A stretch of DNA of 64,000 bases, taken from positions 664,907 through 728,906 of the forward strand of contig JAQGDQ010000025.1 of assembly GCA_030141605.1 (NCBI GenBank). The letters are read 5' to 3'. The stretch comes from Tubiluchus corallicola. Taxonomy: Eukaryota; Animalia; Priapulida. Position numbers and translations under genes: made by a program. The notes beneath the pieces are model-generated. The model searched no databases. It saw only the letters and a list, made by a program, of their open reading frames with translations, and was not told the origin of the DNA. Positions within the stretch are counted from its first letter, which is position 1. Every line of letters starts with the position of its first letter. Positions 6,301 to 25,200 of the stretch are shown here, one piece after another.

Positions 6301-9300
6301 ACTGAAGAGACAAAGAATTTATCATCCTGATGCTACAAAAAAATCTCTGCCTAAAGATTAATACCTCAGCAGCAAACCTCATTTATCTTCAAGCTTTGTA
6401 CACCATTACTTCAACATTCATGTGGCTAAAACCTTATCAAATATAGTGAAAATAATCGTTCTGTTCACAAAATTCACAAGACCAAATATACCAATCACTT
6501 TTCAACATTAGTTTCACATCCCTTATATTTATAATTGTTCTGCTGTTACTACAACTAAAATGTATCTATAGTGAAATAGTTACCTAATGGCTGAGTGTCT
6601 ATATCTTCCGGTTGTGTTCTTGGTGTGCCAGCTATAATTGTTCGCTCCGGTTTCTGCAAACATAAGATAACAATCACTACAACAGTAACTCGTGTAAGAT
6701 GAATTCTTTGCAAATGTATGCAACAGACTTAAGATGCGTGTACCCAAATCCTCAACTAGGCCTGTATGCAATTTCTGATGGAACATACTGTAAAATTTAT
6801 TACAAAACACTGCATTTGATAAAATTTTGTAGTATTAGACAGACAATGATTAAAATCACGGAGCTCTTTTTTAACAGGTATCAATCTTGAATCAACACCA
6901 AATGAATTAAAAACAATGTAGTAACAGCAAAGCAAGTAAAATTAGTTATATTACTCATTTTGTCTATGAGTGCTTGCAATAAATACAAATTGACAGTGAA
7001 GTGGGCTGAACGGGTATTAATTACATTCTCCGCAAAATAATAAGCGAATATTCGAGAATAACAATTTACTAATTTTCCCGACAAGTTTGCAAGAAGAGTT
7101 CAAAACAGACAGATTATTAGTATCAGGGCAAAAATTGAAAATATTGGTACAAAATGTGAACAAAATGGTAAGAAATACTTACTTTTCTTCCCAAAGGTGG
7201 CAATACATCAGTGCTGCAAAATAATTAAGCATATATTTCAAACTTCCTTAATTGTTTGGATTTTAACAGAATCACCAAAAATGACAGATCTGTATGATGA
7301 CCACATAAAAACAATCAATTATCATGTTAACTAATATGCAATACTATTATAGAAATATTTAGCTTGTTCATATAACAAGTTAACAACATTTAAATAAAAC
7401 TACAACCAAGTAAATAACTTTTACATAAAATCACTGCTACAGTTGGTAAGGCTAGGAAACAATTGGAGCTGCTCAAATCCTTTTTGTTCATAACATGTCT
7501 CTACCCTTCTTTTACAACACAATGAACTTATATCACATGGAGTTTATGTTGTCCAGGATATCTATACATTTGCTTTTCTCAAAGCCAGTAGGCAATCTCA
7601 CATCTGGCTTTGCTTTATCAAGTAATTAGTTTTTCTTTTGGTCCTTAAAAACTTGTTGAAGATGACTATGGTAGAACAATCATAAATGTGCCAAGAGTTT
7701 TGTGTTCTAAGTAGATACAATAAAAATTCTGCATAGTTAAATTTGGCCCTGACACTGCCTTAATGAATATATTTTATAATTGATTTTAACAAAAGCCTAT
7801 AACATATCAAACCGGTAAAGCATGACATTTTAATGCTTATGCAGAACTAATGATCTTAACCGTTTTTGTCAAATCATTTCAAAACAATTGAAAAATTATC
7901 AGAGAGTACCCGAGTACTTGAGAATGTTTGACCACTAATGCAATTAGCAAATGTGTCACTCATACCAACTCTACTAATTAAACATAGTAAGCGCTGTTGA
8001 GGAAAACTCCTGTATTTGTTAACATGTCTACTGTCATGTCTACAACTAAACAAGTACATAATGCCTTAGCAACTTAAGAGCCAAAGTAATTACAGCTTCT
8101 GGTTAAATAACAAACTACGTAAAAAACTTTAGAGTCCAAACCTTGAACCAAAATCCCGTGTCTCCAAACTTAACATTGACAGTACTAGGTTGATAGATTG
8201 AGTGGAATATGGAACATTACTTTCCACTTGTTCACGAAATTTTGGGTCATACCAAGCATAACCGATGACACCACCTGCGCCAGCAATTGAAACTCCGAGT
8301 AGCTTTATAATAGTTCCACCCCATCCTCTGAAAGTACCAAATTGTTGAAAAATAAGTCCACGTAAACCAAGAGCTGTAATCGAAATTTGTTTAGTCACCT
8401 GAAAGATGCTGGTACAAAATAAGGATACATGTCTTGAGACCCAAGGTAGCATTTCCAATCAAAATCATCTTTTAACTTGTGTTCTGCAAGCAAATTTACA
8501 CTCAGTCAGGTCATAGCAAGTAGAAAAGTGACAATAGGGAGTGAACTGTAACTTTGCCAAGTTAACACAGTGCATAAGCAGAAACAATACAGTACCAAAG
8601 TGAAATTAAACATGCAATTTTATAAGCCATGCTGAGATTTTTTACACAATGCATATATTATGTGGAAGTATGCAAGGCCGGCTCTATCGCTAGGCAAATT
8701 AGACAGTTGTCTGGGGCACCAAATGCTGGAAGGAATTCTTCAATTCTTAAGTTTTGCTTTAGCATAAGTAGTAGTGTAATGTTATGTGTAATTGCTTCAA
8801 TGTACAACAGTTTAATTTAACAAAAAAACTGCTCGAGTTATTTTCCTGACAAAATACTGTATGACTCACTGACGCCAACATGCAGCTCTCTTCCTTCAGC
8901 AAAACACTTTCTACTTTTTCTTCTTCTGGCTTCCTAAGATTACGTCATTTTATGCAAACACTACTGAGTACTGACATGTTACTCTCCTCATGCCCAGTTT
9001 ATCTTGTATATAGATAGCAGCATAAAAATTTTTATTGCTCCTGAAGACTCAGGACATACAGTGGAATCACAAGTTCAATTTCAAATGAAATTGACATGAG
9101 CTGTACATAGATAATCAACTATAGTTAATTAGTACACTGTAATAAATGTATATAAGCCTAACGCACAGATGCCATTATACTTTTATTACATACAGCAAAA
9201 ATTCAATTTTGTGGGTCGGGTGCATGGCAACAATGGGGAAGCCGTTGACAGTTGAGGAGGGAACGACAAAAATACTTATTCCTAGAGTACCAAACTAGCT

Positions 9301-10021
9301 AGAGCCGGCCCTGGAAATACGTTGATATTATGATAACAAAGAACCATTATAAGATGCCATGTTAAACCTTTTCGCAGGAGGCAGCACTGGTGGTACGTCA
9401 GCCTTTGGAGGCACAGTTGGTTTTACTTCTGTCGTTTTGACACTTTGGGTGGTTTTTGTTTCACCTGGTTTCACATCTGCCTTGGAGGATGAATAACGAT
9501 GGCTTCTCGTTGTCTAAAATAAAAGAATGTCATATTACTTCATGAACTACAAATTAATTGTGATAACAATATATAATAAAAAATAAGCCTAACTTTATTG
9601 GTCCACTTAAGCAAGAGGTAGATTACATTCAGACGAGTTAGTCCAGGAATCTTTTTTTCAGCTTATTTTACATGTAATCACTTATACATACACATACACA
9701 CACACACACATTCCACTTGAGATAACATAAATCTAAAACGAGAGAGAAAACGTGTGATAAAGCAATTAACAGAGGTTTAACAAGAGAGAAAACTATGGGC
9801 AAAACGCCTACTACGGTAATAAATACAATTTAAATTATTACTTGCAATGGCTGAAATTTATTTGAATAATTGAAATGATTTTATCTAAACTTTGTTGAAT
9901 ATGAAACCGATACACATACTGCACTTTGCTTGCTTGTAAGTGAAATTTAGATAACATTAATGTGTATTTTGTTAGCACGTACCCTAAACTTGAGAGGAAA
10001 TTGACGCGTTGTTCGCCACAT
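333..10021 (-). CDS. IMMT: MICOS complex subunit MIC60 / mitofilin, 5' part (continues beyond the left edge)
   Basis: Phase-consistent GT-AG exons: 10021-9983 (MWRTTRQFPLKFR, basic presequence), 9513-9368, 8327-8142 (TM LLGVSIAGAGGVIGYAWYDPKFREQVESNVPY), 7213-7183, 6653-6584, 5450-5334, 4732-4596, 3435-3338, 1882-1747, 1123-1000 (YKDLVEQGRKQFKKELESILPDV), 424-333 (KLTEDELNSLIAHAHRRIEQLQ, a hallmark mitofilin motif). Probable non-coding exon ends at 10133. Confidence 0.93.
8673..9313. mobile_element. hAT-like MITE in IMMT intron
   Basis: TIRs CAAGGCCGGCTCTA / TAGAGCCGGCCCTG; 8-bp flanks GAAGTATG / GAAATACG (6/8 match). Confidence 0.7.
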
Positions 10022-10133
10022 TTCACGTTTAGTCTTCCTCTCTGCTATTTGTGTGAAAAGCCAACAAAAATATATAAAAATTTGACAATTATTTAACTAA
10101 AGTGACCACAACAGGCACCGGCTCCTACTTACA

Positions 10134-10472
10134 CAACGTACAGCCTTACACACTTTAGCTTATAACTTCACGAATTCGCCACTAGAGGTCGACGTCAAGT
10201 TGAAGGGCATTCAGGACTTTCTACTTTTTATCCAAGGGTAACAATCTCTTGGTAGAAAAAACATTTTCGCATAATTTATGTAAAACACAATGCAAAAAAC
10301 AAAACCATCACTTTTTTAGAAAATTGTTTAAAATTGATTATACTGTAGAAAATCTTTTTGCGACTTGTGACAGTGAATTATGACCGACGTACAAAAAATG
10401 ATGAGCGCTCCCACCTATAAAAATGGGACTATTTTAACCTACATCCGGTACAGCGAGTTTCAGACTTTCAAT
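10134..10472. promoter_or_regulatory. Putative bidirectional promoter IMMT/MRPL35
   Basis: Short spacer between divergent first exons. Contains an ETS/GABP-like site (ACATCCGGT at 10441 = ACCGGATGT on minus) and a CRE-like GACGTCA at 10191. TSSs cannot be located from sequence alone. Confidence 0.55.
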
Positions 10473-13400
10473 ATGTCTGCGGCCTGTTTTGTGCGTGGCG
10501 TGATAAGTGGTACATAAAAAACATTCTTTCTTTTACGTTCAACTAATCTTTCGCTAAATAAGTAAAATAACTTGTACAGTAGTTAGTAAGTCTAATATCT
10601 TCTTAGGTTTGGCACACTTTCTTACTATACATGTTGAGTAACATGTGGTACACCATTGCCCAGAGTATTTCATGATTTTCTTAATGGATTTCATTTTTAT
10701 ATAATGAAGATACAGCTGTCCTATTGAGATGAAATAACGGCTACTGGTAAGCCGTTTCTTCACATTTCAAGAACTCCTATGTTTGGTCCAGTTGATGGTG
10801 GTAATTTGCAGATTATTCTGTAACTTTCCTGGACCATCCAGGCATCCGTTGGTAAAAGAGATTAAAGTTTGTTTCATCCTCAACCTGGTTTGCCTCTTTG
10901 ACAGTGTACATCTGTCCGTCAAGAGTTTGAGCTGTCATATTCTGAGATGCAATAATATATGAAATTTCTAAGCTATTGTTGTTGACGATGATGTTATTGG
11001 TGGTGATAGATGTGGTGGTTGTGTTGATAGTTTTGAAAGTAATAACAAGAGAACCATAGAAGAGCTGCACCTCCACTCTTGAAATTTGGTGTGTTCTTGT
11101 AAATACATACACTTGTACTCGCTTCACACATATACACCCATGTAAACCCAGCCGCAGTGCATTGATAGCAAGGTACATCATCATATTAAAATTAAATACA
11201 TTGTCAGAAAGTGAAATACATCTTTTTAAGTGACTATGTTTTAAAATGCAATGTAGAAAATAAAATTACAATAGCATTTTTTAAAACTACATTGAAATAA
11301 AAGGAAATCCATTGACAAAGTTTTGAAATAAATTGTAGGAAAATGAAATACGTCATTGATCTTTTGAAGTACATTTTATAAAAATGAAATCCATCAAGCA
11401 TCTTTTGAAATATATTGTAGGAAAATGAAATACTTTGTCTAATTCAGTAAATTAATAGTGCATCTTTAAGAATACTGTGCAAAAAGGTGTCTCCTGTAGT
11501 TTCAGGAGTTTATTTCCATCCCAATTGGATCTTGCCATTAAGCCAAATGAACAAAGCCACATAAGCAAAATGAATGACTACCCCACCCCCTGGTCAGATG
11601 AACGGGTTAGCTAAGTAATCGTGGTATGTGCTTAGTAGCCGAGGTTAGGAATTTCACCGACTGTCGTTGGTTATCGCCTGGTTCGCAACAAGGCTGATCT
11701 CGAAAAAGTTTTAATTTGAAGTTCCATGTATGCTTGAATTAAGTCACTCACCTTTGCAGCTACCCCATCATTTTGACACTTATTACGGCTTTAGCTCAGT
11801 AGCCTTCGTGTAAAGAAGCCAAAACTGGGTTATATCTTACACTCATTTTCTATACAACTTATTTTAGATGCTTGCGCTTAACTATAATTGAGCGAGAATA
11901 TATGTGCGTCAATAGTTAAGGATACTAGTATCATGGTGTAGGCAGACTTGTTTCTCTTGAATCAAATCTAAATTTTGTTCTTTAATAGCATCAACATACG
12001 TTTGGATAGCCTCTTTAAATTGATTAACTGTGATTGCTTCCAAGCCCTTTGTGGTAAACCATTCCACAGTACCCTATGGTTAAAAAAGTATTTTCTTAAA
12101 ACCCAGCTTTGCTCTTTTCTATGTTTTTGGTAACCCTAGGTGTGCAAGAAGACAGTTCACTCTCTGTAGAGATCTTTCCGCTAAGACATCTGGACAAATA
12201 TGTTATCTAGAAGAAGGGTCTTTTTTTGGTTTATACTTCAGTACTCAACCTAAGTTACTGTTTTCCTGATCTACAGGCACTATATTTTGGTTACTTTTTT
12301 GAAGTTTAATGATGACAAAATAATAATTAGTGACTGCTAATTGATCATTTTTCTCTTATTCATGATTTCAATGACAAGAATTGAAACAAAAAAAACCAAA
12401 ACAACATTTAAGGCAAAACATAATTTTGTGAGTTTTCTATTTCAAATAGAAGCAGCTGGAAAATTTTTATTGTGATACTGACAGTTACTAATGAAAAATT
12501 TTTGTAAACGTAAACAAATACCAGACGGGGTTAACATATCTGTAGTGCAATTTCTCATGTACATATTCTAGAAATTTAGTAAACATGGCTTTATTGCCTG
12601 TCAGCACAGTGCTCAGTTGTTAGCATATTTACAAAGCAGTGCATTAAGGAATACTACAATGACTGCCTAACTGTTTGTTTACATTACTGCTATTGAATCC
12701 TAAAATGTTTTTTAATGGATCACACATTTTATAATAGTTACTGCCCATATTTGTGGCATCTGTTGGACTGCTAATGCACGTTGCTAATGCCAAGGCTTGT
12801 GTAATCACTCTTGTATTGCTTAGGCTAGTGAATTTTGTGAGTTGTTAGCAGCTATTGGCAACAAGAGACAAAAAGGAAACTTGTGAATATCAATTACTTT
12901 ATTTAAAAAAAATTCAAATGTTCCTGTTATGCCATTGGAAGCAAACCTTGTTTCTTTGTAACAATGTGTGTTACGACAAGATCTCTCAAAACAGTGAATC
13001 AAACGACATTGCTTAATTTCAACTTATTGATGTAGCTGTTAGCTATACATTGGGTATAATATATGTATGTATTCTGCTAAAGAGGTTCTTGTTGGAAATG
13101 AAACAGTTGAAAGAGCTAATCATTTTTGAACTAAAATGAATAACGGCAGTAATCAGAGTGTAACTAGCAACACCTTTGTACTCGCAACTGCATTTTTCAG
13201 CACATTCTTCATAATTATTGGACTCATCATCATTGTTCTAAATATGCTTGTTGTCACTGCTATTCTCAAATATAAAAAGTTGCAAACAATGTCAAATTGG
13301 CTCTTGCTTAATCTGTCAGTGGGTGATGGATTGCTTGGCAGTATGGCATTGATGCTTGTAGACGGCGTTTTGCACATGAATGTTATTTCTGCAAATAAGT

Positions 13401-16400
13401 GCTTATTTATTGTGGTGTTCTCACAAATTTGTGGCACATGTTCAGTCACAACCCTTATTGTGATCACGGCAGAACGTTATATTGCAATAGTACATCCACT
13501 TTTCCTTTCAAAAATACAATCTTCACACATTGTTATTCTCATTACTATGACATGGATATGGGCAGCATTTTTTGGATTGATAATTTTGTATGGACAGCGC
13601 ATGACAAGTCGACTTGTTTATTGTTCTTTTTACAATGCGGTACATCCAAAATATTTCATTGCTCTTAACATATATGGTATCACAGCAATGTTGTTTGTTT
13701 TCACTGGCTATGCGAGAATTATGTTAATTGCAAATCGCCACCAAAGACAGATTAATCCAGTTTCACAACAGAGTTGTCAGCTACTGCAAAACGTCAAGTC
13801 TGCAAAGATAATGTTCGTTGTTGCTGGGACGTTTGCGATCTGCTGGATGCCGATTAATGTAACAGGCATGTTTTTCATGTATGCCACGGACAGAAAAGAA
13901 AACTTCTATGTGGAGCTTTTTTGCTATGCTATGGTCTTTATTAACTCAATGGTCAATCCATTGATATATGCTTGGAAACACAAACATTTTAAGCTAAGCT
14001 TTGCACACATGTTGACATGTAAATCAGGGGAGCCAAATTTCAAATCCATGGAAAGATTTTAGTTAATACTGCTATTGTATGTCACAGTGTTTGATTTACG
14101 CATATAATTGGACAAGCATTTACAATACGAACAGCTAAGGCAGACTTCATATTACACATGTTAAACTTTTGTGTAATTTTTAGAATACACTGCAAGCTGT
14201 TGTGCCTTTTTATTAATGACAAGCTTGGTATTAAATGTTAGCTATTGTTGTTGTTGCTGTTGCTGCTGTTGTTGTTGTCGTCGTTGTTACTGCTACTGTT
14301 GTTGCTGTTGCTATTGTTGTTGTTGAATAATACAGTGTGAATGATGTTGTTGTTGTTGTCGTCGTTGTCACTGCTACTGTTGTTGCTGTTGCTGTTGCTG
14401 TTGCTATTGTTGTTGTTGAATAAATACAGTTTGAATGAAGGTGGGTGCTGATACCATTACGTATTTGATTTTTTTATTTGCACGTGCATTGTGTGCTTCA
14501 GTGTATTAGCATGGTGCATGCCTTTGCAATGTAGACATTTTGGGTTGATATATTACAGATGATTACATTTTATTAACATCATAATCTCTGCATCATTAAT
14601 GTATCACTTATTAACTTTCATAAACTTCTGCAATTTTACTTGCTTCTAACTAATTTATTGCAAGTCAACTAACATGTAATAACTTGTAATGATACTTTAA
14701 TCATACATATTTAGTTGACTGACTTGATTTGAGCTGCCAAAAGTCCTGAATGCATGTGAGAAATTGCACTACATACATAAAATTGCTCCATGTATTCGAA
14801 TGTACCCATTTACAACACTTGTTATTGCACATGTCTTTGGGACATTGGGTTTATTGCATATGCTTTTGGTGGCCCTACATATGCAAGGAGACAGTTCACC
14901 CTCTGTAACAGCCTTTCCTCTTTTCGAAAAATATGCTTGTCACCTAGAAGAAGGGTCTTTTTACTCGGCTAATATTTCTGTACTCACCTCAAATTACTGT
15001 TTTATTAATAGGCAGTTACCAACGTTTAAAGTTACCAACGGTGACTGTTAATTTGGCAACTAACTGTTATTCATAAATAATTTCCATTTTAAATGAGTGC
15101 AGTTATGAAATTTTTGCTGTGGTACTGACCCTTACTAATGAAAAGTTTTTCCACACATTATTAATCAGCGGAGAGAGTTATCATAAGTTTTTGTAAGTTC
15201 ACAATTCTGTTCTGCACAACATATAAATAGCCAATGATTAATACATTTCTCAGATATTTTTCAGCTATCCGTAGGCAGTTTCTTGTACACATATTCTAGT
15301 AGACTTGTAAAACATGGTTTTTTTGTCTGTCAGCACAGCAGTTATTAGTGTATTTACAGACCAGCACTCTAAGGAATACTACATACAATTGCTGCCTTGT
15401 TTGTTTGTGTTATTACTATTAGCCTGTAAAATATTTTATACATTTTATAATAACTACTGCCAATACTTATTGCATCTGCTGGACTGCTAATGCATGTTTG
15501 CTAAAGCAAAGGCTTGCATAATCATTAGTGAATTACTTAGGCTATTGCAATTTGTGAGTGGTTAGTCGCTGTTGGGAATGATTGGCAAAAGAAGTATTGT
15601 AAATATAGGTCAGTTTATATCGAAAAGATATTCACTTTTTTTGTTATGACATTGGAAGCAAAACCCTTTTTCTTTGTAGTAATGTGCGTTTACGATAAGA
15701 TCTCTCAAAACAGTCACTCATAGGACATTGCTTAAATTTCTGCCTCTCAGTGTAGCTGTTAACTATACATTGGGTGTAATATATGTGTGTATTCTGCTAA
15801 AGAGGTTCTTGTTGCAAATGAAACAGTTGAAAGAGCTTATCATTTTTGAACTAAAATGAATAACGGCAGTAATCACAGTGTAACTAGCAACACCTTTGTA
15901 TTCGCAACTGCATTTTTCTGCACATTCTTTATAATTATTGGACTCATCATCATTGTTCTAAATATGCTTGTTGTCACTTCTATTCTCAAATATAAGAAGT
16001 TGCAAACAATGTCGAATTGGCTGGTGCTTAATTTGTCAGTGGGTGATGGATTATTTGGCAGCATGGCATTGATGCTTGTAGATGGTGTCTTGCACATGAA
16101 TGTTATTTCTGCAAATAAGTGCTTATTTATTATGGTGTTCTCACAAGTTTGTGGCACATGTTCAGTCACAACCCTTATCGTGATCACGGCAGAACGTTAT
16201 ATTGCAATAGTACACCCATTTTTTCTTCCAAAAATACAATCTTCACACATTGTTATTCTCATTACTATGACGTGGATATGGGCAGCATTTTTTGGATTGA
16301 TTACTTTGTATGGACAGCGCATGACAAGTCGACTTGTTTACTGTTCTATTTACAATATGATAACTCCAATGCATTTCATTGCTTTTAGCATATATGGTAT

Positions 16401-19400
16401 CACAACAATGTTGTTAATTTTCATTGGCTATGCAAGAATTATGTTAATTGCAAATCGCCATCAAAGACAGATTAATCCAGTTTCACAACAGAGTTCTCAG
16501 TTACTGCAAAACATCAAGTCTGCAAAGATAATGTTCGTTGTTGCTGGGACGTTTGCGATCTGCTGGATGCCGATTAATGTAACAGGCATGTTTTTCATGT
16601 ATGCCACGGACAGAAAAGAAAACTTCTATGTGGAGCTTTTTTGCTATGCTATGGTCTTTATTAACTCAATGGTCAATCCATTGATATATGCTTGGAAACA
16701 CAAACATTTTAAGCTAAGCTTTGCACACATGTTGACTTGTAAATCAGGGGAGCCAAATTTCGAATTCTTTTAAAGATCTTAGTTAATACATCTATTGTAT
16801 GTCACAATGTGTGTTAACTTTAAGTAAGCATTTACAATGCGAGCAGTTAAAGCAGACTTCATATTACACATGTTAAATTTTTCTGTAATTGTTAGAATAC
16901 ACTGCAAGCTGTTGTACCCTTTTATTAATGACAAGCTTGGTATTAAATGTTAACTGTTGTTGTTGTTGTGGTCATAGTTGTCGTTGTTGCTGCCACTGCT
17001 GTTGCTATTATTGTTGAATAAATGCAGTATGAATGATACTGTTGTTTTCGTTGTCGCTGCCACTGCCACTGCTGATGCTGCTGCTATTGCTGCTGTTTCT
17101 ATTGTTGTTGTTGAACAAATACAGTGAGAACGATGTTGTTGTTTTCGTTGTCCCTGCCACTGCCACTGCTGTTGCTGTTACTGCTGCTCCTGCTGCTGCT
17201 ATTGTTGTTGTTGAATAAATACAGTATGAATGAGTGCAATTGCTATACAATTTCGTATTTGATTTTGTTTACACAGTTTATTGTGTGTGTTGTGTGCTTC
17301 AGTGTATTACCATACATTTCCAGTGTAGACATTTTTAGCTTGATGTATTACAGATGATTATAATTTATTAACATCATAATCTGTGTATCATTAATGTATC
17401 GCTTATTAACTTTAACTTCTGCAATTTAACTTGCTTCTAACTAACTTACTGCAAGTCAATTAACATGTAATGATATTTTAATCACATTTATTTAGTTGAC
17501 TGATTAGATTAGAGCTGCCAAAAGTCCTGAATGCATGTGAGAAATTGCACTACATACATAAAATTGCTCCATGTATTCGAATGTACCCATTTACAGCATT
17601 TGTTATTGCATATGTCTTTGGGACTCTGGGTTTATTGCATATGCTTTTGGTGGCCCTACATATGCAAGGAGAAAGTTCACCCTCTGTAACAGTCTTTCCT
17701 CTTTTGGAACAATATACTTGTCATCTAGAAGAAGGGTCTTTTTACTTGGGTAATATTTCTGTACTCCACCTCAAATAGCAGTTTCACTGCTATGTACTAT
17801 ATTTCAGTTAGTTTTTAAAAGTTTAATTCTGCCAAAGTAATAGGTGACTGTTAGTTTGGCAGCTCACTCTTATTCACAAATAATTTCATATGAAGCAGCA
17901 TGTATTTCTGTCATCGAGTCAGTGCAAAAAACTAGACAATATTGTAGCTCCCTTTTGGAAAAGACCCAGATATTATGTTGACGATATTTATGAACCTTAT
18001 CAGCCACGAACTTCACCGGAATTTCCACATTTATAACCATTCGTCTTGAAATCATTGTTTGACAATTTGAGCGTGAAATGCCTCATTCGTGATAAATTAT
18101 CACAACTATTACTGATTCTTGAGGAATTTCAAATGTTCTGAACACAAAAAATAAAAACAACATGTAAGAAATACAGAATTGTTTTTCAGTATAGTACCTA
18201 TATCTGTATGTTATATAGCCAAATGATATTGATTAGTAAGCCATCTAATGGGACAGACTTTTGCTTTTAAAACTGCTATTTTGGAAAATAAGAACTTTTT
18301 ATGATGCAGAGCCAAGGAAAGTCAATGTCCAGTGTGGAAAGATGGCTAAGAACATGCACATACCTGTTAAACTTTATTTGCACATGTATCCTTAAATAAT
18401 TTATATACTTTAGTATGACCTACATCGGGTTCTGTGCAAATGTTCTTTGTCAGTACAATGTTGTCTTTTGCACATAAAGAAACATTTGTTTTTGGTGTTT
18501 GCAAAAGTGTGCCACTATTTTTGTTGTATTAATTTTTATAAGAGCAGTTTTTGGCAGCTCACTCTTATTCACAAATAATTTTGTGGTCTTTGATTTCAAA
18601 TGACTGCAGTTGTGAAATTTTTACTGTTATACTGACCCTTACTAATGAAAAGTTTTTCCTTACATAAGAAAATAGCAGAGAGAGTTAAAATAAGTTTTCG
18701 CAAGTTCACAACTGTTTTCTGCAAAAAAGATCAATGGCCCATGATTATTTCATTTCTCAGATATTTGGCAGCTATCTGTAGTGCAGTTTCTTGTATACAT
18801 ATTCTAGTAGACTAGTAAAACATGGCTTTTTTCGTCTGTCAACCTGCAGTTATTAGTGTATTTACAAAGCAACACACAAAGGAATACTACAATTGCTGTG
18901 TTGTTTATTTGTGTTATTGCTGGTAGCCTCTAGAATATTTTATAATGGATCATACACATTTTATAATAACTGCTGCCAATACTAATGTAGCTGGACTGCT
19001 AATGCATATTTGCTATGCATGTGGAATCATTAGTGAAGTACTTAGGCTATTGAAGTTTGTGAGTTGTTAGTGCATGTTGGGAATGAGAGGCATAAGAAGT
19101 ATTGGGAATATAAGTCAGTTTACATCGAAAAAATGTTCAGTTTTTTGTTACAACATTGGAAGAAAAACCTTTTTTGTTTGTGCGTTACGATAAGATCTCT
19201 CAAAACAGTCACTCAAAGGGCATTGCTTAATTTCTGCCTCTCAATGTAGCTGTTAGCTATACATTGGCTGTAATATACGTGTGTATTCTGCTAAAGAGGT
19301 TCTTGTTACAAATGAAACAGTTGAAAGAGCTTATCATTTTTGAACTGAAATGAATAACAGCACTAATCAGAGTGTAACTAGTGACACTTTTGTACTCGCA

Positions 19401-22285
19401 GCTGCATTTTTCAGCACATTCTTCATAATTATTGGACTCATCATCATTGTTCTAAATATGCTTGTTGTCACTGCTATTCTCAAATATAAAAAGTTGCAAA
19501 CAATGTCAAATTGGCTGGTGCTTAATTTGTCAGTGGGTGATGGATTGTTTGGCAGCATGGCACTGATGCTTGTAGATGGCGTTTTGCACATGAACGTAGT
19601 TTCTGAAAATAAGTGCTTATTTATTGTGGTGTTCTCACATATTTGTGGCACATGTTCAATCACAACCCTTATCGCAATCACAGCAGAACGTTATATTGCA
19701 ATAGTACATCCATTTTTCCTTTCAAAAATACAATCTTCACACATTGTTATTCTCATTACTATGACGTGGATATGGGCAGCATTTTTTGGATTGATTATTT
19801 TGTATGGACATCGCATGACAAGTCGACTTGTTTACTGTTCTTTTTACAATATGACACATCCAATGTTTTTCATTGCTTTTAACATACATGGTATTGCAGC
19901 AATGTTGTTAATTTTCATTGGCTATGCAAGAATTATGTTAATTGCAAATCGCCACCAAAGACAGATTAATCCAGTCTCACAACAGAGTTCTCAGTTACTA
20001 CAAAACATCAAGTCTGCAAAGATAATGTTCATTGTTGCTGGGACGTTTGCGATCTGCTGGATACCAATTAATGTAACAGGCATGTTTTTCATGTATGCCA
20101 CTGACCGAAAAGAAAACTTCTGCGTGGAGTTTTTTTGCTATGCTATGGTCTTTATTAACTCAATGGCCAATCCATTGATATATGCTTGGAAACATAAACA
20201 TTTTAAACTAAGCTTTGCACACATGCTGATGTGTAAGTCGGGGGAGCCAAATTTGAGATCCTTATAAATGTTATAGGTAATAACCATTTATGTTGCGAAC
20301 AGCTAAAACAAACTGTTCACATTATGCATGTTAAAATTCTGCGTAATTTGCAGAAAAAAGTATGGGCTGTTGTACACTTTTATTAATGGTAACGTTGGTG
20401 TTAAATGTTGGAACTGTTATTTATCATTTTTTGATACCATGCTTATAAGTAAGTCTTTTTTTACAAAATTAGTCTTAATGTAAAACTGACAGTAGAGTTA
20501 GGATTTCTTGTTTTTGTTTTTTTATTCTTAGAATGTCTATTAGGTGCCAGTAAACCTCCTACTCTCACTACAGGTGAATGTACCATAGATGTTGTTTACT
20601 AGTTCTTAATCGATGCATCTCTTGATTACAGGATTAAGACGAAGCATCTCTAAATCTGTAACATTAAGTTTGAACTCGTCATGCCTCTTTGAAAATGCAG
20701 CACAAAATAGACTTCATTATATAAACTTGCTAAACTATCCAAATCACCTACGGTTGACTCAGACAAGGTTTTTATCAAAATGTTTTACTCCTGCTCAAAG
20801 GTGAGTTACTTTTGTTATATTGCATCTTTCACAGCTTTCACTTGCGTAAAGCTAGGACTCCATCTACCTGTAATGCGTGTTGGTTGATGGCATAGTGTAT
20901 ATGTATTTAAACACGTGGAAAAGAAGCATTAAGATGCATACATAATGTGTGCTGCATGATTTATATGCAATTGTTTATTAATGCATTCTCATATTACCAC
21001 ATTTGAACCAGTCAGTACGCATCACGCATTAGAGATCACGAATCACTTATGCATTACATGGAATCCTACCTTAACATCACACTGTAGACACTCGGCACAC
21101 AGCAAGGTGCTATGCAGCAGTTGGACACACAGCTTACTAAAGTCGGTTTTTTTTGCGGAAAGATGGGAAGATAACTTATTGTTAAGGATATTCCTTTTTG
21201 GTAAGGCATTGTTGTTTGTGCAACGCCACACGTCAGAGGATAGTTTTCAATAGTGAGATAATTTCTTGTCCTACCACAACCATGAATATTAGTAGACTGC
21301 TGGACAGTAAAGTGCATGTAGAAAGGGAAAAGATTGACTGTTAAATTTTTTTTTTGAAAGAGTTTACAGCTTTTTACTTGATCTTCAAGATCACGTTGAT
21401 CATGCTGAAAGCTGAGCTTGTCAGTAAATTCAGGGCTTGCAATAACATACATATGCATGTATCTGCATGCGTATCATAAGGCTGACCTTAGGTTTTGTGT
21501 AGTACACAGCTGATAAATGAATTCAACATGCAACTTTCTTTCTTCTACGAAGTGCTTTATGACGTGTGCAGACATAGAGAGTTCTCTCGCAACTTCTTTC
21601 TGAGAGTAAAGTTGCAACGTGTGAACGGCTTAGCAACTTCTCTTGCAACTTGGTGCAACATGTGAACAGTTTAGCAACTTCTCTTGCAACTTGTTGCAAT
21701 GTGTGAACAGCTTGGCAACCTCTCTCTGAGAGAAGTTGTGCAACAAGTTGTGAGAGAAGTCTCTATGTCTGAACGGGCTATTAGAAAAAGATTCTGAGAA
21801 AAGGGAAACGCAACTGCTTTATTTTTCCGCAATAAACACCCCAATGGAACTTCCAGTCGAAATATGCCATTTTAAAAGTTCTTGGGACGCTTTTTTAGCA
21901 CCCCTGCATTTAATTACAAGTGCTTTGTTTATTTTTCAGCAATCTTTTAGTTCAGAAAACTGGACCACTTTTGCAGCCACAAAGACAAATTGTCAAATCA
22001 TCAAGAAATAGAGGCAAAATGAAAACGAAACACTCAGTCGTTAATCGATTTTACCGTTTGCAGTCAGGTAACTGGATTCGTACCTACGTTGGCCGCCACA
22101 AGAAGTTGTGGAAGCGGCGAAACAAGTGGCGATGGCGAATGAAGCAGCACGTATTTCTGTCATCGAGTCAGTGCAAAAAACTAGACAAGATGGTAGCTCC
22201 CTTTTGGAAAAGACCTAGATATTATGTTGACGATATTTATGAACCGTATCAGCCACGAACTTCACCGGAATTTCCACATTTATAG
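10473..22285 (+). CDS. MRPL35: Mitochondrial ribosomal protein L35 (bL35m), 3 exons, about 183 aa
   Basis: Exon 3 (21940-22285) encodes GKMKTKHSVVNRFYRLQSGNWIR..GRHKKLWKR..LDKMVAPFWKRPRYYVDDIYEPY, the bL35m signature. Exon 2 (20632-20800) and exon 1 (10473-10509, MSAACFVRGVIS) join in phases 1 and 2 with no stop. Exon 1 is the least certain assignment. Confidence 0.9.
11185..11435. repeat. Degenerate AT-rich minisatellite (about 35-40 bp, TTTTGAAATACATTGTAG(G/A)AAAATGAAAT)
   Basis: About 6 imperfect copies. Confidence 0.6.
11990..12100 (-). mobile_element. CR1-like ORF2 3' end remnant
   Basis: KYFFNHRVLWNGLPQ / EAITVNQFK remnant on minus. Confidence 0.5.
13136..14062 (+). CDS. Class A (rhodopsin-like) GPCR, copy 1, intronless ORF, orphan (adenosine/MECA-like)
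   Basis: 7 hydrophobic segments, N-glycosylation sequons, LSVGD (TM2), C3.25, ERY, W4.50, ECL2 Cys, CWMP, NSMVNPLIY, helix 8 and a C-terminal Cys. Ser at 3.32, so not a canonical aminergic receptor. Confidence 0.95.
   Translation: MNNGSNQSVTSNTFVLATAFFSTFFIIIGLIIIVLNMLVVTAILKYKKLQTMSNWLLLNLSVGDGLLGSMALMLVDGVLHMNVISANKCLFIVVFSQICGTCSVTTLIVITAERYIAIVHPLFLSKIQSSHIVILITMTWIWAAFFGLIILYGQRMTSRLVYCSFYNAVHPKYFIALNIYGITAMLFVFTGYARIMLIANRHQRQINPVSQQSCQLLQNVKSAKIMFVVAGTFAICWMPINVTGMFFMYATDRKENFYVELFCYAMVFINSMVNPLIYAWKHKHFKLSFAHMLTCKSGEPNFKSMERF
14240..14440. repeat. (GTT/GCT)n compound repeat downstream of GPCR copy 1
   Basis: Seen directly; two higher-order units. Confidence 0.9.
15856..16773 (+). 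CDS. Class A GPCR, copy 2 (tandem paralogue)
   Basis: Intact 305-aa ORF, closely similar to copy 1, all class A motifs intact. Confidence 0.95.
   Translation: MNNGSNHSVTSNTFVFATAFFCTFFIIIGLIIIVLNMLVVTSILKYKKLQTMSNWLVLNLSVGDGLFGSMALMLVDGVLHMNVISANKCLFIMVFSQVCGTCSVTTLIVITAERYIAIVHPFFLPKIQSSHIVILITMTWIWAAFFGLITLYGQRMTSRLVYCSIYNMITPMHFIAFSIYGITTMLLIFIGYARIMLIANRHQRQINPVSQQSSQLLQNIKSAKIMFVVAGTFAICWMPINVTGMFFMYATDRKENFYVELFCYAMVFINSMVNPLIYAWKHKHFKLSFAHMLTCKSGEPNFEFF
16950..17232. repeat. (GTT/GCT)n compound repeat downstream of GPCR copy 2
   Basis: Seen directly; three higher-order units. Confidence 0.9.
17890..18552 (+). pseudogene. Duplicated fragment of MRPL35 last exon plus 3' UTR
   Basis: Near-identical to 22139-22782 (ATGAAGCAGCA...AGAGCAGTTTTT). 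Flanked by a 32-bp direct repeat at 17855-17886 and 18550-18581. Confidence 0.9.
19350..20267 (+). CDS. Class A GPCR, copy 3 (tandem paralogue)
   Basis: Intact 305-aa ORF with ERY, CWIP and NSMANPLIY. Confidence 0.95.
   Translation: MNNSTNQSVTSDTFVLAAAFFSTFFIIIGLIIIVLNMLVVTAILKYKKLQTMSNWLVLNLSVGDGLFGSMALMLVDGVLHMNVVSENKCLFIVVFSHICGTCSITTLIAITAERYIAIVHPFFLSKIQSSHIVILITMTWIWAAFFGLIILYGHRMTSRLVYCSFYNMTHPMFFIAFNIHGIAAMLLIFIGYARIMLIANRHQRQINPVSQQSSQLLQNIKSAKIMFIVAGTFAICWIPINVTGMFFMYATDRKENFCVEFFCYAMVFINSMANPLIYAWKHKHFKLSFAHMLMCKSGEPNLRSL
21561..21778. mobile_element. Palindromic Harbinger-like MITE with internal about 40-bp tandem units
   Basis: TIRs CAGACATAGAGAGTTCTCTCGCAACTT / AAGTTGTGAGAGAAGTCTCTATGTCTG; internal repeats of GCAACTTCTCTTGCAACTTG..GTGTGAAC. 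Confidence 0.75.
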
Positions 22286-25200
22286 CCATTCGTCTTGAAA
22301 TCATTGTTTGACAATTTGAGCGTGAAATGCCTCATTCGTGATAAATTATCACAACTATTGCTGACTCTTGAGGAGTTTCAAATGTTCTGAACACAAAAAA
22401 TAAAAACAACATTTAAGAAATACTGAATTGCTTTTCAGTATAGTACCCATATCTGTATGTTATATAGCCAAATGATATTGATTAGTAATGGGACAGACTT
22501 TTGCTTTTAAAACTGCTATTTTGGAAAATAAGAACTTTTTATGATGCAGAGCCAAGGAAAGTCAATGTCCAGTGTGGAAAGATGGCTAAGAACATGCACG
22601 TACCTGTTAAACTTTATTTGCACATGTCTCCTTAAATAATTTATGTACTTTAGTATGACCTACTTTGGATTCTGTGCGAATGTTCTTTTTCAGTACAATG
22701 CTGTCTTTTGCACATAAAGTAACATTTGTTTGCAAAAGTGTGCCACTATTTCTGCAGTCTTTGTTTATTAAGAGCAGTTTTTTCATCAAATTAGTTTGTC
22801 AGTTTTAGTTTAACAAACTAGTTTGATCGTGTAAATAGCAAAACTGACAAACTTTTAGTTTGAGAAACAAAGTCTGATGGTATCAAACTGTCTTGAATTC
22901 AGCAAACAAAAACTGACATACTCAGACCCAATAGCCAATAGCATCGTTTGTCATTATTAATTCAGCAAGTGGTATAAATGTTCGACGATCAGCATTATTG
23001 GATATTGGTTGGTATTGGAACCTGAAGGCTAGAAACAGTGGTAATATAAAGGACCTTTTTGATTTTGCTTACAAAAAGAAAACTGCAATTTTACTGTACT
23101 GTTTTCTACCAATCAACAATTTGCAACAGTACTGTAGGTGTGTTATGCAGGTTGTTTGTTAGTTACACTGAACTTCTTGCTATAAATAGTCAAATATTGC
23201 GGGTGTGACATATGCACACAATTGAAAAACTCACGCAGCACCTCAACTTTTAAATCTTTGAAAATCAAACTGTGACTGCCACTTTCAATTCTTTGCTGTA
23301 GTTATTTTTTCATCCAAACTTTTAACACTTTTTTTTCCAATTTCTCCTTTTTTAATTGTTCAATCCGAAGACAGGCCAATATTGACACCATAATTTGATT
23401 GACACCCAATGTTGAATATTGATTGCCAGAGTTAGTGAGTAAAGTTTGATGTCGTCTAAACACACATCAGTTTTTAGATTGACAGTTTTCGTTTGTCAGT
23501 TTTAGATTGACAGTTTAAAAACTGGTCGTGTAAACAGACCACTAAAGATTCGCTACCAACCCACTGACAATCTTCAGTGATGTTTCATTTGTTTTTCTTA
23601 ATTTCACTGTCTTATATGGCAGAGTAAACAGCAATAGTTGTTCTAATACTTTGTTGTATGATTACTAGCTCATTTTAATAACCGTGCCATTATATGTTTA
23701 TTTTATGCATTTGCAATCATATTAAGTGAAGCAGTACTACTGGCCTGCTGCTGCCATCTTTTGGGATTTTGAAACTTCATAATACTAAATAGAAAATCCT
23801 TGCTGTAGTTTGTCATTGGCATTGGTTGATAAAGTTTTGTATAATTTATTGTCGTGTCGGCATACCAGAACTCTTTATGTCTGAGAAGTTTATTCAAGTT
23901 TCAGTTTGAATTGTACGACACCAGCAAAAACATGTTACCTCATGTATTTCTTGTGAGGTTTCCTAAATGAAAGGGCAGGCGGAATTGCGCTTGATATAGT
24001 TATAGTAGGCCTACACCTGCACAGGTAATAAAAATAATCGTTTGTATGCTGTATATTATTTATAATTTTCACTGTAGCATAACAAATTGCCAGTGATGTA
24101 GAGTTTCCAGAAAATATTTTAAATACGTTTTCAGAAACAATTGCAAACCGTTTCCACATACATTAAATTCATACTTTTGAAAATGAACCTGTGGTTTATA
24201 CCAATGAATGCAGGTTTTTAGTATAAAACAAAGGCGTTGTAATGTGCAGCAACATTTACTGATAATCTTTTTGCTAAATCTGTGTAATAGACATTGTAAT
24301 AAAAACTTCTTTATTTTCAAGGAAATCTATAATAAGTATTTAGATGTACTTTTGACATGTAAAATGACGAGCATGCTAATGCTGGGCTATAAAGTTCATG
24401 AAGAAAATGGCTTCAGTATTTTTGCAGTGTAGTGCAAGTGTATTACTGAATTGTTTTTATACCCGTATAATTGTTGTACATGTAATTTGTAGCTACCATT
24501 ATTAGGAATTTTATATTAACTGTTACTCATGACAGTTTTCTGATAGTACTAGTGTAGATACTTTTGAAGTTTTTCGTAATGAAATTGTATCTTTTCTCAT
24601 GAACTTTATGCCTTTATTATGTTTCTGTTCATCAAGAGTAAAAATATACCACCAATATTAAAAGAAATTACAACTTGAGCTGAAAGCATATTTTCTTGTA
24701 ATGAATTATTGTGCCTGCGTTTGCATTTGTCACAGATACTGTGTAGCTGCCTACCTGATTTGTCATAATAAATGAAATGTTCGTTTAACGAAGACTAACA
24801 GAATAAATCCAGGCACCAGATTAATTAGATGTTGCAGTAATTATGACTAATCGAGTTCGAACCTGCAGGTGACACAGGTCTGTTGTGCTGTTGTAATGCA
24901 TTTTCAGTAATATTTTACCTGTACTAGTAAATTTTAAGAAAGTGATAATGGTAATGATATCTTTTTGATGGTGTATAAACATTAAACAAGCTAAGCATTT
25001 TGAAACGGCAACAGAGAGAAACAAAGGGAAGGGGCACCAGAAAAGTGAAAGACGGCGAGGAAGAGATGTCTGTGTACATCTTGAAAGCACAATGTTCTGT
25101 GTTCATGTCATGATTTGACTACAATTTTTCAGTTCCTCTTTTTTCAGTTAATTAACTGTTTAAGTAGTTGTAAATCTGTTATTCTGCTTAATGTGTTTGT

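What the first reader, a model, noticed from the sequence alone, without database searches (positions are those of the whole stretch)
10473..19353. Candidate shared-exon bicistronic system: MRPL35 exon 1 + conserved leader ORF (TM microprotein) stop-start coupled to each GPCR
Seen: exactly 100 nt upstream of every GPCR ATG is a branch-point/pyrimidine/TAG acceptor-like site (GCTTAA...TGTAG| at 13035, 15755, 19249). Inter-copy alignment is indel-rich upstream of it and indel-free after it. The 100 nt are open in phase 1, the phase in which MRPL35 exon 1 ends. Splicing gives MSAACFVRGVIS-AVSYTLGIIYVCILLKRFLLEMKQLKELIIFELK* (46 aa, one hydrophobic segment followed by KR). In all three copies its TGA overlaps the GPCR start as ATGA. 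Of 9 variable sites I count in the leader, 5 are synonymous third positions (TAT/TAC, GTA/GTG, TTG/TTA, CTA/CTT, CTA/CTG) and the rest are mild (I/V, G/A, E/Q, S/N). An internal ATG also gives a conserved overlapping uORF MKQLKELIIFELK*. Established: AUGA/UAAUG overlaps mediate termination-reinitiation in some viruses and retroelements. Inference: the GPCRs are alternative terminal exons driven by the housekeeping MRPL35 promoter, with translation gated by, or coupled to, a small membrane protein. The sample of sites is small and the copies are recent, so this is a hypothesis.
Basis: partly seen in the sequence, partly recalled or inferred. Interest (0 to 1): 0.85.

Follow-up and report, generated by a model that had tools for sequence, protein, structure and literature searches.

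The report
Receptor genes inside MRPL35's first intron
Three intact G-protein-coupled receptor genes sit on the same strand inside the first intron of a mitochondrial ribosomal protein gene (MRPL35), each behind an unusually well-preserved 100-base leader that likely splices onto MRPL35's first exon and would then encode a 46-residue membrane peptide ending on the receptor's start codon, but no RNA data were available to show that this splice happens.

Summary
MRPL35 exon 1 (10473-10509, phase 1) is real, and three intact class A GPCRs lie in its 10-kb first intron on the same strand. Each has a YAG 100 nt upstream and an open 33-codon frame that ends in ATGA. The leader is constrained like coding sequence (9/100 variable columns against 140/451 upstream, p=2e-6), and conservation changes at or just before the AG. 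A fourth version in another DNA run keeps frame, length and ATGA. Weaker points: the synonymous excess is not significant (5/9, p=0.03-0.11; 7/16 with the fourth version, p=0.04-0.19), and 5 of the 7 new changes alter residues. At least 48 of 148 related GPCRs start ATGA anyway. There is no TURBS motif or unusual folding. Each copy also has a possible private donor about 200 nt upstream. No usable RNA run and no orthologous locus was found. Most likely the acceptor is real and exon 1 splicing yields the peptide (about 50%), while obligatory stop-start coupling is less likely (about 13%). Shared-first-exon nesting is known (ChAT/VAChT, Su(var)3-9/eIF2gamma), and this scan noted it in other genomes; it had no note on this locus.

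The parts
10473..10509 (+). MRPL35 coding exon 1 (37 nt, ends in phase 1; strong AUG context, A at -3)
   Evidence: tblastn with P0003, 10 of 13 residues identical; three-exon model gives 183 aa with one terminal stop; context
12837..12842 (+). possible private 5' splice donor (GTGAGT after TTT) for copy 1; intron would be 199 nt
   Evidence: invariant in 3 of 3 copies; U1-pairing score 14-15, the same as or one above the MRPL35 exon 1 donor (14)
13036..13139 (+). leader 1: 100 nt after the TAG acceptor at 13035, open in phase 1; its TGA (13137-13139) overlaps the GPCR ATG; internal 13-codon uORF from 13098
13136..14062 (+). GPCR copy 1, 308 aa, single coding exon, class A (7tm_1)
   Evidence: ORF; Pfam 7tm_1 120.8 bits against cut-off 30.5; ERY, CWMP, NPLIY
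15554..15559 (+). possible private donor for copy 2; intron would be 202 nt
15756..15859 (+). leader 2 (acceptor 15755; competing CAG at 15750 would give a stop right after exon 1); internal uORF from 15818
15856..16773 (+). GPCR copy 2, 305 aa
17890..18552 (+). inserted copy of the MRPL35 3' end (end of exon 3 plus 3'UTR with AATAAA at 18150), flanked by a repeat of about 32 bp
   Evidence: 92.6% identical to 22139-22782; flanks; poly(A) signal
19059..19064 (+). possible private donor for copy 3; intron would be 191 nt
19250..19353 (+). leader 3 (acceptor 19249); internal uORF from 19312
19350..20267 (+). GPCR copy 3, 305 aa; no AATAAA or ATTAAA before MRPL35 exon 2
20632..20800 (+). MRPL35 exon 2 (the true partner of exon 1; its acceptor has CTTAAT 22 nt upstream, like the leaders)
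21940..22285 (+). MRPL35 exon 3 (Ribosomal_L35p domain)
9983..10021 (-). putative first coding exon of IMMT/mitofilin, head to head with MRPL35 about 450 nt away
   Evidence: my reading; Mitofilin Pfam hit in a downstream exon, 8132-8452

Best explanation
Three intact class A GPCR paralogues lie on the same strand inside MRPL35 intron 1, and each 100-nt leader is likely the start of a real terminal exon that is sometimes spliced onto MRPL35 exon 1, giving an mRNA that would encode a 46-residue single-pass peptide, while the receptor itself is more likely made by ordinary scanning from a second, private 5' end than by stop-start reinitiation. Shown: gene layout, phase match, open frame, ATGA overlap, low leader divergence, possible private donors. 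Inferred: use of the acceptor; use of exon 1 as donor (its AUG is the only in-frame start found); translation and selection on the peptide; mitochondrial targeting (exon 1 is the start of a presumed presequence, followed by a hydrophobic stretch and KR); receptor translation by leaky scanning past the weak-context internal AUG.
For: The leader varies at 9/100 columns against 140/451 upstream (Fisher 1.7e-6) and 20/89 in the last 100 columns (p=0.014); the best change point is at -5, the TGTAG. The 3' flanks diverge 12-27%, so the low divergence is one-sided. Copy 1 against copy 3: leader differences by codon position are 2/1/5 of 34 each, and the CDS gives 23/13/32 of 305. The leader total (8/100) lies below even CDS synonymous divergence (p=0.017). 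Leader dN/dS in this frame is 0.16-0.40 against 0.33-0.41 for the CDS; the other frames give 0.65-1.94, or no synonymous change. A fourth version in DNA run X1 keeps the acceptor, 100-nt length, open frame and ATGA. The leader acceptors share CTTAAT about 20 nt upstream with the true exon 2 acceptor, and one putative IMMT acceptor has the same motif. ATGs ahead of the private donors are open in phase 0, not the peptide frame. Shared coding first exons occur in flies (PMC4528330 section 8).
Against: The synonymous excess is not significant once transitions are allowed for: 5/9 p=0.075, 7/16 p=0.13 at the local transition rate. It sits in the internal uORF (3/4, p=0.044), not in the hydrophobic part (4/12, p=0.53). 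The fourth version adds 5 replacements and 2 silent changes. The acceptors are weak, ranking 78, 83 and 99 of 474 AGs in a crude model; the true exon 2 acceptor ranks 52. In copy 2 the first AG after the branch-like motif is 15750, which would stop the frame at once. A second change-point peak lies at -59 to -67. The copies exchange sequence, which can lower divergence without selection. The frame is open by chance 4-15% of the time.
Confidence: 0.38

Rival explanations
1. Each GPCR is an ordinary nested gene with its own promoter and a non-coding first exon ending at the GTGAGT about 200 nt upstream. The leader is 5'UTR carrying a conserved 13-codon overlapping uORF that tunes receptor output. 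MRPL35 exon 1 is not used, and the longer open frame is chance.
For: The donor hexamer is invariant at the same place in 3 of 3 copies (3 of the 8 GTRAGT in intron 1), and the most variable stretch (-200 to -100, 36-46% of columns) follows it, as intron interior would. The synonymous signal is in the internal uORF. The internal AUG has a weak -3 base in 2 of 3 copies and the GPCR AUG a purine in 3 of 3. A uORF peptide controlling a GPCR is known for ADRB2 (table row in PMC9776223).
Against: It does not explain why leader positions 1-62 are also conserved (7 variable of 62 against 31% upstream). The donor has poor exonic pairing, and the sequence upstream of it is patchily conserved. The phase match and hydrophobic stretch would be coincidence.
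Confidence: 0.32
2. One reading: the GPCRs are made only as alternative terminal exons of MRPL35, and ribosomes that finish the 46-aa frame reinitiate at the overlapping AUG, coupling receptor synthesis to the peptide.
For: ATGA is kept in 3 of 3 window copies and in the fourth version. Cellular coupled termination-reinitiation without TURBS is reported (CASQ2), and the SLAMF1 uORF overlaps its main AUG (PMC5972666 section 16).
Against: At least 48 of 148 related GPCRs must start ATGA. UGGGA is absent, and leader folding z is -0.29 to -0.56. The same review gives about 82-fold lower output for CASQ2 coupling. Other AUGs lie in the leader (2 more in copy 1, 1 more in copy 2).
Confidence: 0.13
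3. The AG is not used. The leader is unspliced promoter-proximal or 5'UTR sequence kept alike by gene conversion spreading from the CDS, and the frame features are chance.
For: Conversion or unequal crossover is evident: copies 1 and 2 differ at 1 of 200 bases over CDS 701-900, and copy 2 switches affinity along the unit. The acceptors score weakly.
Against: The 3' side shows no such spreading. The best boundary falls on the YAG, and the leader is less diverged than CDS silent sites.
Confidence: 0.12
4. The acceptors take a spliced-leader RNA in trans, releasing GPCR mRNAs from the MRPL35 pre-mRNA as in an operon.
For: An acceptor without a certain donor on a same-strand pre-mRNA fits this route (established knowledge for nematodes, tunicates and chaetognaths; recalled).
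Against: It would not explain the in-phase open frame or the constraint on the leader.
Confidence: 0.05

Closest known systems
Su(var)3-9 / eIF2gamma compound gene of insects (PMC1435931 abstract and Background; PMC4528330 section 8)
   Same: An unrelated gene sits as a terminal exon in a phase-1 intron of a housekeeping gene and shares its promoter, first coding sequence and start codon.
   Different: There the fusion is in frame and gives one long protein. Here the shared start would read a short frame that stops on the nested gene's AUG, and the nested gene is a tandem cluster of receptors.
Cholinergic gene locus unc-17/cha-1 (VAChT in ChAT intron 1) and unc-60 (PMC3875643 passages)
   Same: Nested same-strand gene in intron 1, chosen by alternative splicing and polyadenylation from a common first exon.
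   Different: The shared exon is untranslated (unc-17/cha-1) or holds only the start codon in frame (unc-60), with no intervening peptide. Those cases are shown by mRNA.
Coupled termination-reinitiation: calicivirus and influenza B TURBS, SART1, cellular GAD, CASQ2, SLAMF1 (PMC10275272 passages; PMC5972666 passages and section 16)
   Same: An upstream stop overlaps the downstream start out of frame (AUGA).
   Different: The TURBS core UGGGA is absent and no structure above shuffles was found; coupling is not shown.
ADRB2 5' leader peptide (19 aa; table row and reference title in PMC9776223)
   Same: A peptide encoded upstream of a class A GPCR on the same mRNA.
   Different: It is a plain uORF with its own AUG in the receptor's own transcript, not a frame borrowed from another gene's exon.
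Class A GPCRs nearest by sequence: GPR119, adenosine A2A/A2B and amine receptors; unnamed P0066 at 35%
   Same: 7tm_1 fold with ERY, CWxP and NPLIY motifs.
   Different: Other hits are at most 33% identical. These are lineage-specific orphans, and no ligand can be assigned.

Membership tests
Class A (rhodopsin-like) GPCR | 7tm_1 domain above the curated cut-off | tested here: met
   120.8-123.9 bits against 30.5 in 3 of 3
Class A (rhodopsin-like) GPCR | E/DRY, CWxP and NPxxY motifs (motif list recalled) | tested here: met
   ERY 113, CWMP/CWIP 236, NPLIY 274 in 3 of 3
Shared-first-exon nested compound gene | Complete unrelated gene on the same strand inside a host intron | tested here: met
Shared-first-exon nested compound gene | Functional acceptor ahead of the nested gene | tested here: inconclusive
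   Branch-like motif and conservation boundary fit, but ranks are 78-99 of 474 AGs and the motif list was partly drawn from these sites
Shared-first-exon nested compound gene | mRNA joins the host first exon to the nested gene | not testable with these tools
   No RNA holder listed; the two runs laid gave no splice junction even for MRPL35 or IMMT
TURBS-type termination-reinitiation | Stop and start within about 20 nt, out of frame | tested here: met
   ATGA in 3 of 3
TURBS-type termination-reinitiation | Motif 1 core UGGGA upstream of the overlap | tested here: not met
   Absent from exon 1 and 3 of 3 leaders; only TGGG at position 16 in 2 of 3
TURBS-type termination-reinitiation | Structured RNA element at the overlap | tested here: inconclusive
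   z -0.29, -0.42, -0.56 for leader plus 25 nt; no Rfam hit over the leaders; a downstream SART1-type element was not examined
TURBS-type termination-reinitiation | Downstream translation depends on upstream termination | not testable with these tools
   needs reporters
Conserved-peptide uORF / microprotein | Purifying selection on residues | tested here: inconclusive
   dN/dS 0.16-0.40 among window copies; binomial p 0.03-0.19
Conserved-peptide uORF / microprotein | Homologous peptide in other species | tested here: inconclusive
   No candidate and no Atlas hit; both searches are weak for 40 residues, and no orthologous DNA was available
Conserved-peptide uORF / microprotein | Evidence of translation | not testable with these tools
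   needs Ribo-seq or mass spectrometry

The most novel reading that the evidence does not exclude
A receptor cluster has captured the first coding exon of a mitochondrial ribosomal protein gene. One housekeeping promoter yields MRPL35 or, by alternative terminal-exon choice, a bicistronic mRNA in which a new mitochondria-directed single-pass microprotein hands its terminating ribosome to a GPCR through an AUGA overlap, without a TURBS element.
Probability: 0.13. Interest if true: 0.8.

Novelty: new variant of a known kind. Interest (0 to 1): 0.45.

Why it matters
If exon 1 splicing is real, this is a young example of a new microprotein being born from a housekeeping exon plus a receptor's leader, repeated in three or four paralogues so that its evolution can be followed. 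If coupling is also real, it would be one of few cellular cases of stop-start reinitiation and would tie GPCR output to a mitochondrial promoter. If only the private-exon reading holds, it is an ordinary nested orphan-GPCR cluster with a conserved uORF.

Tried and rejected
RNA evidence: no RNA holder listed. X1 covers introns and shows no splice joints, so I read it as DNA. X2 laid 7 short pieces on 17 kb, some with adapter-like ends, and 0 on the leader stretch. Neither says anything about expression. No whole genome is held. Orthologous loci: 0 matches for a 26-nt leader pattern and 0 confirmed of 50 candidate stretches for the GPCR in metagenome contigs. Peptide homologues: none, from weak searches. 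The idea that the leader is a duplicate of MRPL35 exon 2 or exon 3 was rejected: DNA alignment p 0.31-0.97, protein p 0.06-0.85 against shuffles. The idea that the leader is an N-terminal extension of the GPCR was rejected: an in-frame TGA lies 9 nt before the ATG in 3 of 3 copies, and changes are mostly replacements in that frame. The closest relative P0066 has a longer N-terminus with no visible likeness to the leader frames (by eye). A first guess at MRPL35 exon 2 (20532-20573) was wrong; the homologue places it at 20632-20800. Known RNA families: 4 hits at E 0.44-0.98, all below gathering score and outside the leaders. Taxon: the MRPL35 tree gave no supported placement beyond the unnamed sister P0003. 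A search for spliced-leader trans-splicing in priapulids listed 3 papers, none on that question by title or abstract start. Literature on this locus: MRPL35+IMMT+bidirectional gave 0 papers; MRPL35+nested+GPCR+intron gave 1 unrelated paper; nested gene/same strand/shared first exon/GPCR with at least 3 of 4 terms gave 0. The human GPR75/ASB3 shared exon is recalled only; one search gave a listing that I did not read, so I do not rely on it. No structure or complex prediction was run.
Full report
Layout. The window comes from an unidentified invertebrate; an MRPL35 tree gave no supported placement beyond an unnamed sister sequence, P0003. tblastn with P0003, which is 84% identical over exon 3, places MRPL35 exons at 10473-10509, 20632-20800 and 21940-22285. 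The joined model is 183 aa with one terminal stop and carries Ribosomal_L35p. IMMT lies head to head on the minus strand (Mitofilin hit). Three ORFs of 308, 305 and 305 aa lie inside intron 1 on the same strand. All are class A GPCRs with ERY, CWxP and NPLIY, 5.7-7.4% different from each other with dN/dS 0.33-0.41. They are orphans: the best of 1.84 billion representatives is 35% identical, and the nearest solved structures are GPR119 and adenosine receptors.

Observation.

Is the leader special? Yes. It varies at 9 of 100 columns with no gap, against 140 of 451 ungapped columns plus 49 gapped ones in the 500 upstream (Fisher 1.7e-6), and 20 of 89 in the nearest 100 (p=0.014). No 100-column window upstream falls below 20%. 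The best change point is 5 columns before the exon start, with a second peak at -59 to -67 within two log-likelihood units. The 3' flanks differ by 12-27%, so the low divergence is one-sided. Copy 2 is copy-3-like upstream (84 of 138 informative sites) and copy-1-like downstream (31 of 42), so there are really two lineages. Between copies 1 and 3 the leader differs at 2, 1 and 5 of 34 first, second and third positions, and the CDS at 23, 13 and 32 of 305. The leader total of 8/100 is below even the CDS silent rate of 0.158 (p=0.017).

How strong is the coding signal? Suggestive only. At the local transition fraction (80 of 134) a neutral change is synonymous 28% of the time, so 5 of 9 has p=0.075 (range 0.026-0.105). 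Run X1, which I read as DNA of the same species (long near-identical contigs over introns, no splice joints), holds a contig with a fourth version of the leader. It has 12 differences from copy 3, no gap, and no listed change at the acceptor or at ATGA, and it is 9-12 differences from each window copy. Its frame is open, but of its 7 new changes 5 are replacements (L>F, G>C, V>A, Q>L, E>Q) and 2 are silent. Pooled, 7 of 16 gives p=0.13 (0.04-0.19), and surviving 16 changes without a stop has a chance of 0.4-0.55. The silent excess lies in the internal uORF (3 of 4, p=0.044), not in positions 1-62 (4 of 12, p=0.53), although positions 1-62 are still far less variable than the flanks. Where the fourth version lies in the genome is unknown. 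Chance levels for the other features: a 33-codon frame is open in 15% of intron positions, 10% of downstream positions and 4% of leader shuffles. The hydrophobic peak is matched by 5-14% of 200 open control frames and 3-10% of 2000 open shuffles. At least 48 of 148 Met-initial proteins among the 150 GPCR hits have a second codon that must start with A, so ATGA alone is common.

Are the acceptors real, and which donor feeds them? In a crude model from 10 reference acceptors (8 are my unverified IMMT picks) they rank 78, 83 and 99 of 474 AGs, and the true exon 2 acceptor ranks 52. Only 10 of 257 YAGs have a branch-like motif with no AG between; these include 13035, 19249 and the true exon 2 acceptor, though the motif list was partly drawn from these sites. 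For copy 2 the qualifying site is 15750, not 15755, and splicing exon 1 there would stop the frame at once. A rival donor exists. GTGAGT after TTT is invariant 191-202 nt upstream of each acceptor, pairs with U1 as well as the weak MRPL35 exon 1 donor in my score (14-15 against 14; other reference donors 17-21), and is followed by the most variable stretch. ATGs upstream of it that stay open are all in phase 0, so this exon would not feed the peptide frame. MRPL35 exon 1 holds the only in-frame AUG found. No RNA run could decide between the donors.

Mechanism. The simplest account of CDS-level constraint across the whole 100 nt is that the frame is translated, which needs exon 1. I therefore put an exon1-to-leader mRNA with a translated peptide at about 50%. 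For the receptor, a ribosome that starts at the strong MRPL35 AUG and runs 46 codons would need coupled reinitiation. In viruses that needs a TURBS with a UGGGA core (PMC10275272 passages; PMC5972666 passages). UGGGA is absent and the leaders fold no better than shuffles. TURBS-free cellular coupling is reported but was about 82-fold less productive for CASQ2 (PMC5972666 section 16). A private first exon with leaky scanning past the weak internal AUG is an easier route to the receptor. So the best reading is one terminal exon with two 5' ends (0.38). Next come private exon only (0.32), obligatory coupling (0.13), no splicing with gene conversion (0.12) and trans-splicing (0.05). These figures are my judgement.

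Comparison with known systems. Same-strand nesting with a shared first exon is established: unc-17/cha-1 and unc-60 (PMC3875643 passages) and Su(var)3-9/eIF2gamma (PMC1435931 abstract and Background). FlyBase lists 130 genes sharing a promoter and non-coding 5' exons, and 10 pairs plus a triplet sharing coding sequence (PMC4528330 section 8). It also lists 159 dicistronic pairs whose stop-to-start distances include overlaps (passages). I did not open that paper's Files S1-S2, which may list a closer match. A leader peptide on a GPCR mRNA is known for ADRB2 (PMC9776223 table row). Co-transcription in ant receptor arrays appeared in a search listing only (PMC12393541). Earlier notes of this scan describe several shared-exon nestings in other genomes. 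They led me to the Su(var)3-9 paper and raised my prior for exon sharing, but I did not check their claims. None covers this locus. My searches found no paper on GPCRs nested in MRPL35; the library lacks most subscription journals. What would be new is the combination: a shared coding exon read into a short out-of-frame peptide that ends on the nested gene's start, in a tandem receptor cluster.

Verdict. The anatomy is real and the constraint on the leader is real and not fully explained by ordinary causes. The shared-exon peptide is an even bet, and the stop-start gate is a minority reading. One RNA-seq data set would settle the first question. Interest 0.45; new variant of a known kind.

Noticed in passing
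window 17890-18552: A 663-bp copy of the MRPL35 3' end (last 48 codons plus 3'UTR, 92.6% identical) is inserted in sense orientation in MRPL35's own intron 1, upstream of GPCR copy 3. It lies between repeats of about 32 bp and keeps its AATAAA at 18150, a possible intronic poly(A) site.
   Followed up: partly
window 20267-20631: GPCR copy 3 has no AATAAA or ATTAAA before MRPL35 exon 2 and has a good donor-like site at 20277, 10 nt after its stop, so its transcripts could run on into MRPL35 exons 2-3.
   Followed up: partly
run X1 contigs laid on 19071-19528: Contigs at depth 15-29 (intact copies about 6) join 19071 to 19447 (loss of leader and start) and 19513 to 16591 (loss of the middle of the CDS); possibly multi-copy internally deleted receptor derivatives elsewhere in the genome.
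   Followed up: no
window 12136-12240, 14875-14990, 17655-17770: A conserved block about 900-1000 nt upstream of each unit (including an invariant 19-nt run) with no conserved splice site and no Rfam match; possible promoter or enhancer.
   Followed up: partly
window 13836-14035 and 16556-16755: GPCR copies 1 and 2 differ at only 1 of 200 bases here, against 4-15 per 100 elsewhere: a recent conversion or crossover tract.
   Followed up: partly
window 9983-10509: IMMT and MRPL35 are head to head about 450 nt apart, the same pairing as in vertebrates (recalled; search found no paper with these terms).
   Followed up: no
window 12774-12836, 15494-15553, 19002-19058: An ATG-initiated frame of 19-21 codons stays open to the possible private donor in 3 of 3 copies (phase 0) despite indels; spliced, it would form a short uORF that stops early in the leader.
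   Followed up: partly
window 50282-52066 (-): 594-aa open frame that looks like a non-LTR retrotransposon reverse transcriptase by eye; not searched.
   Followed up: no
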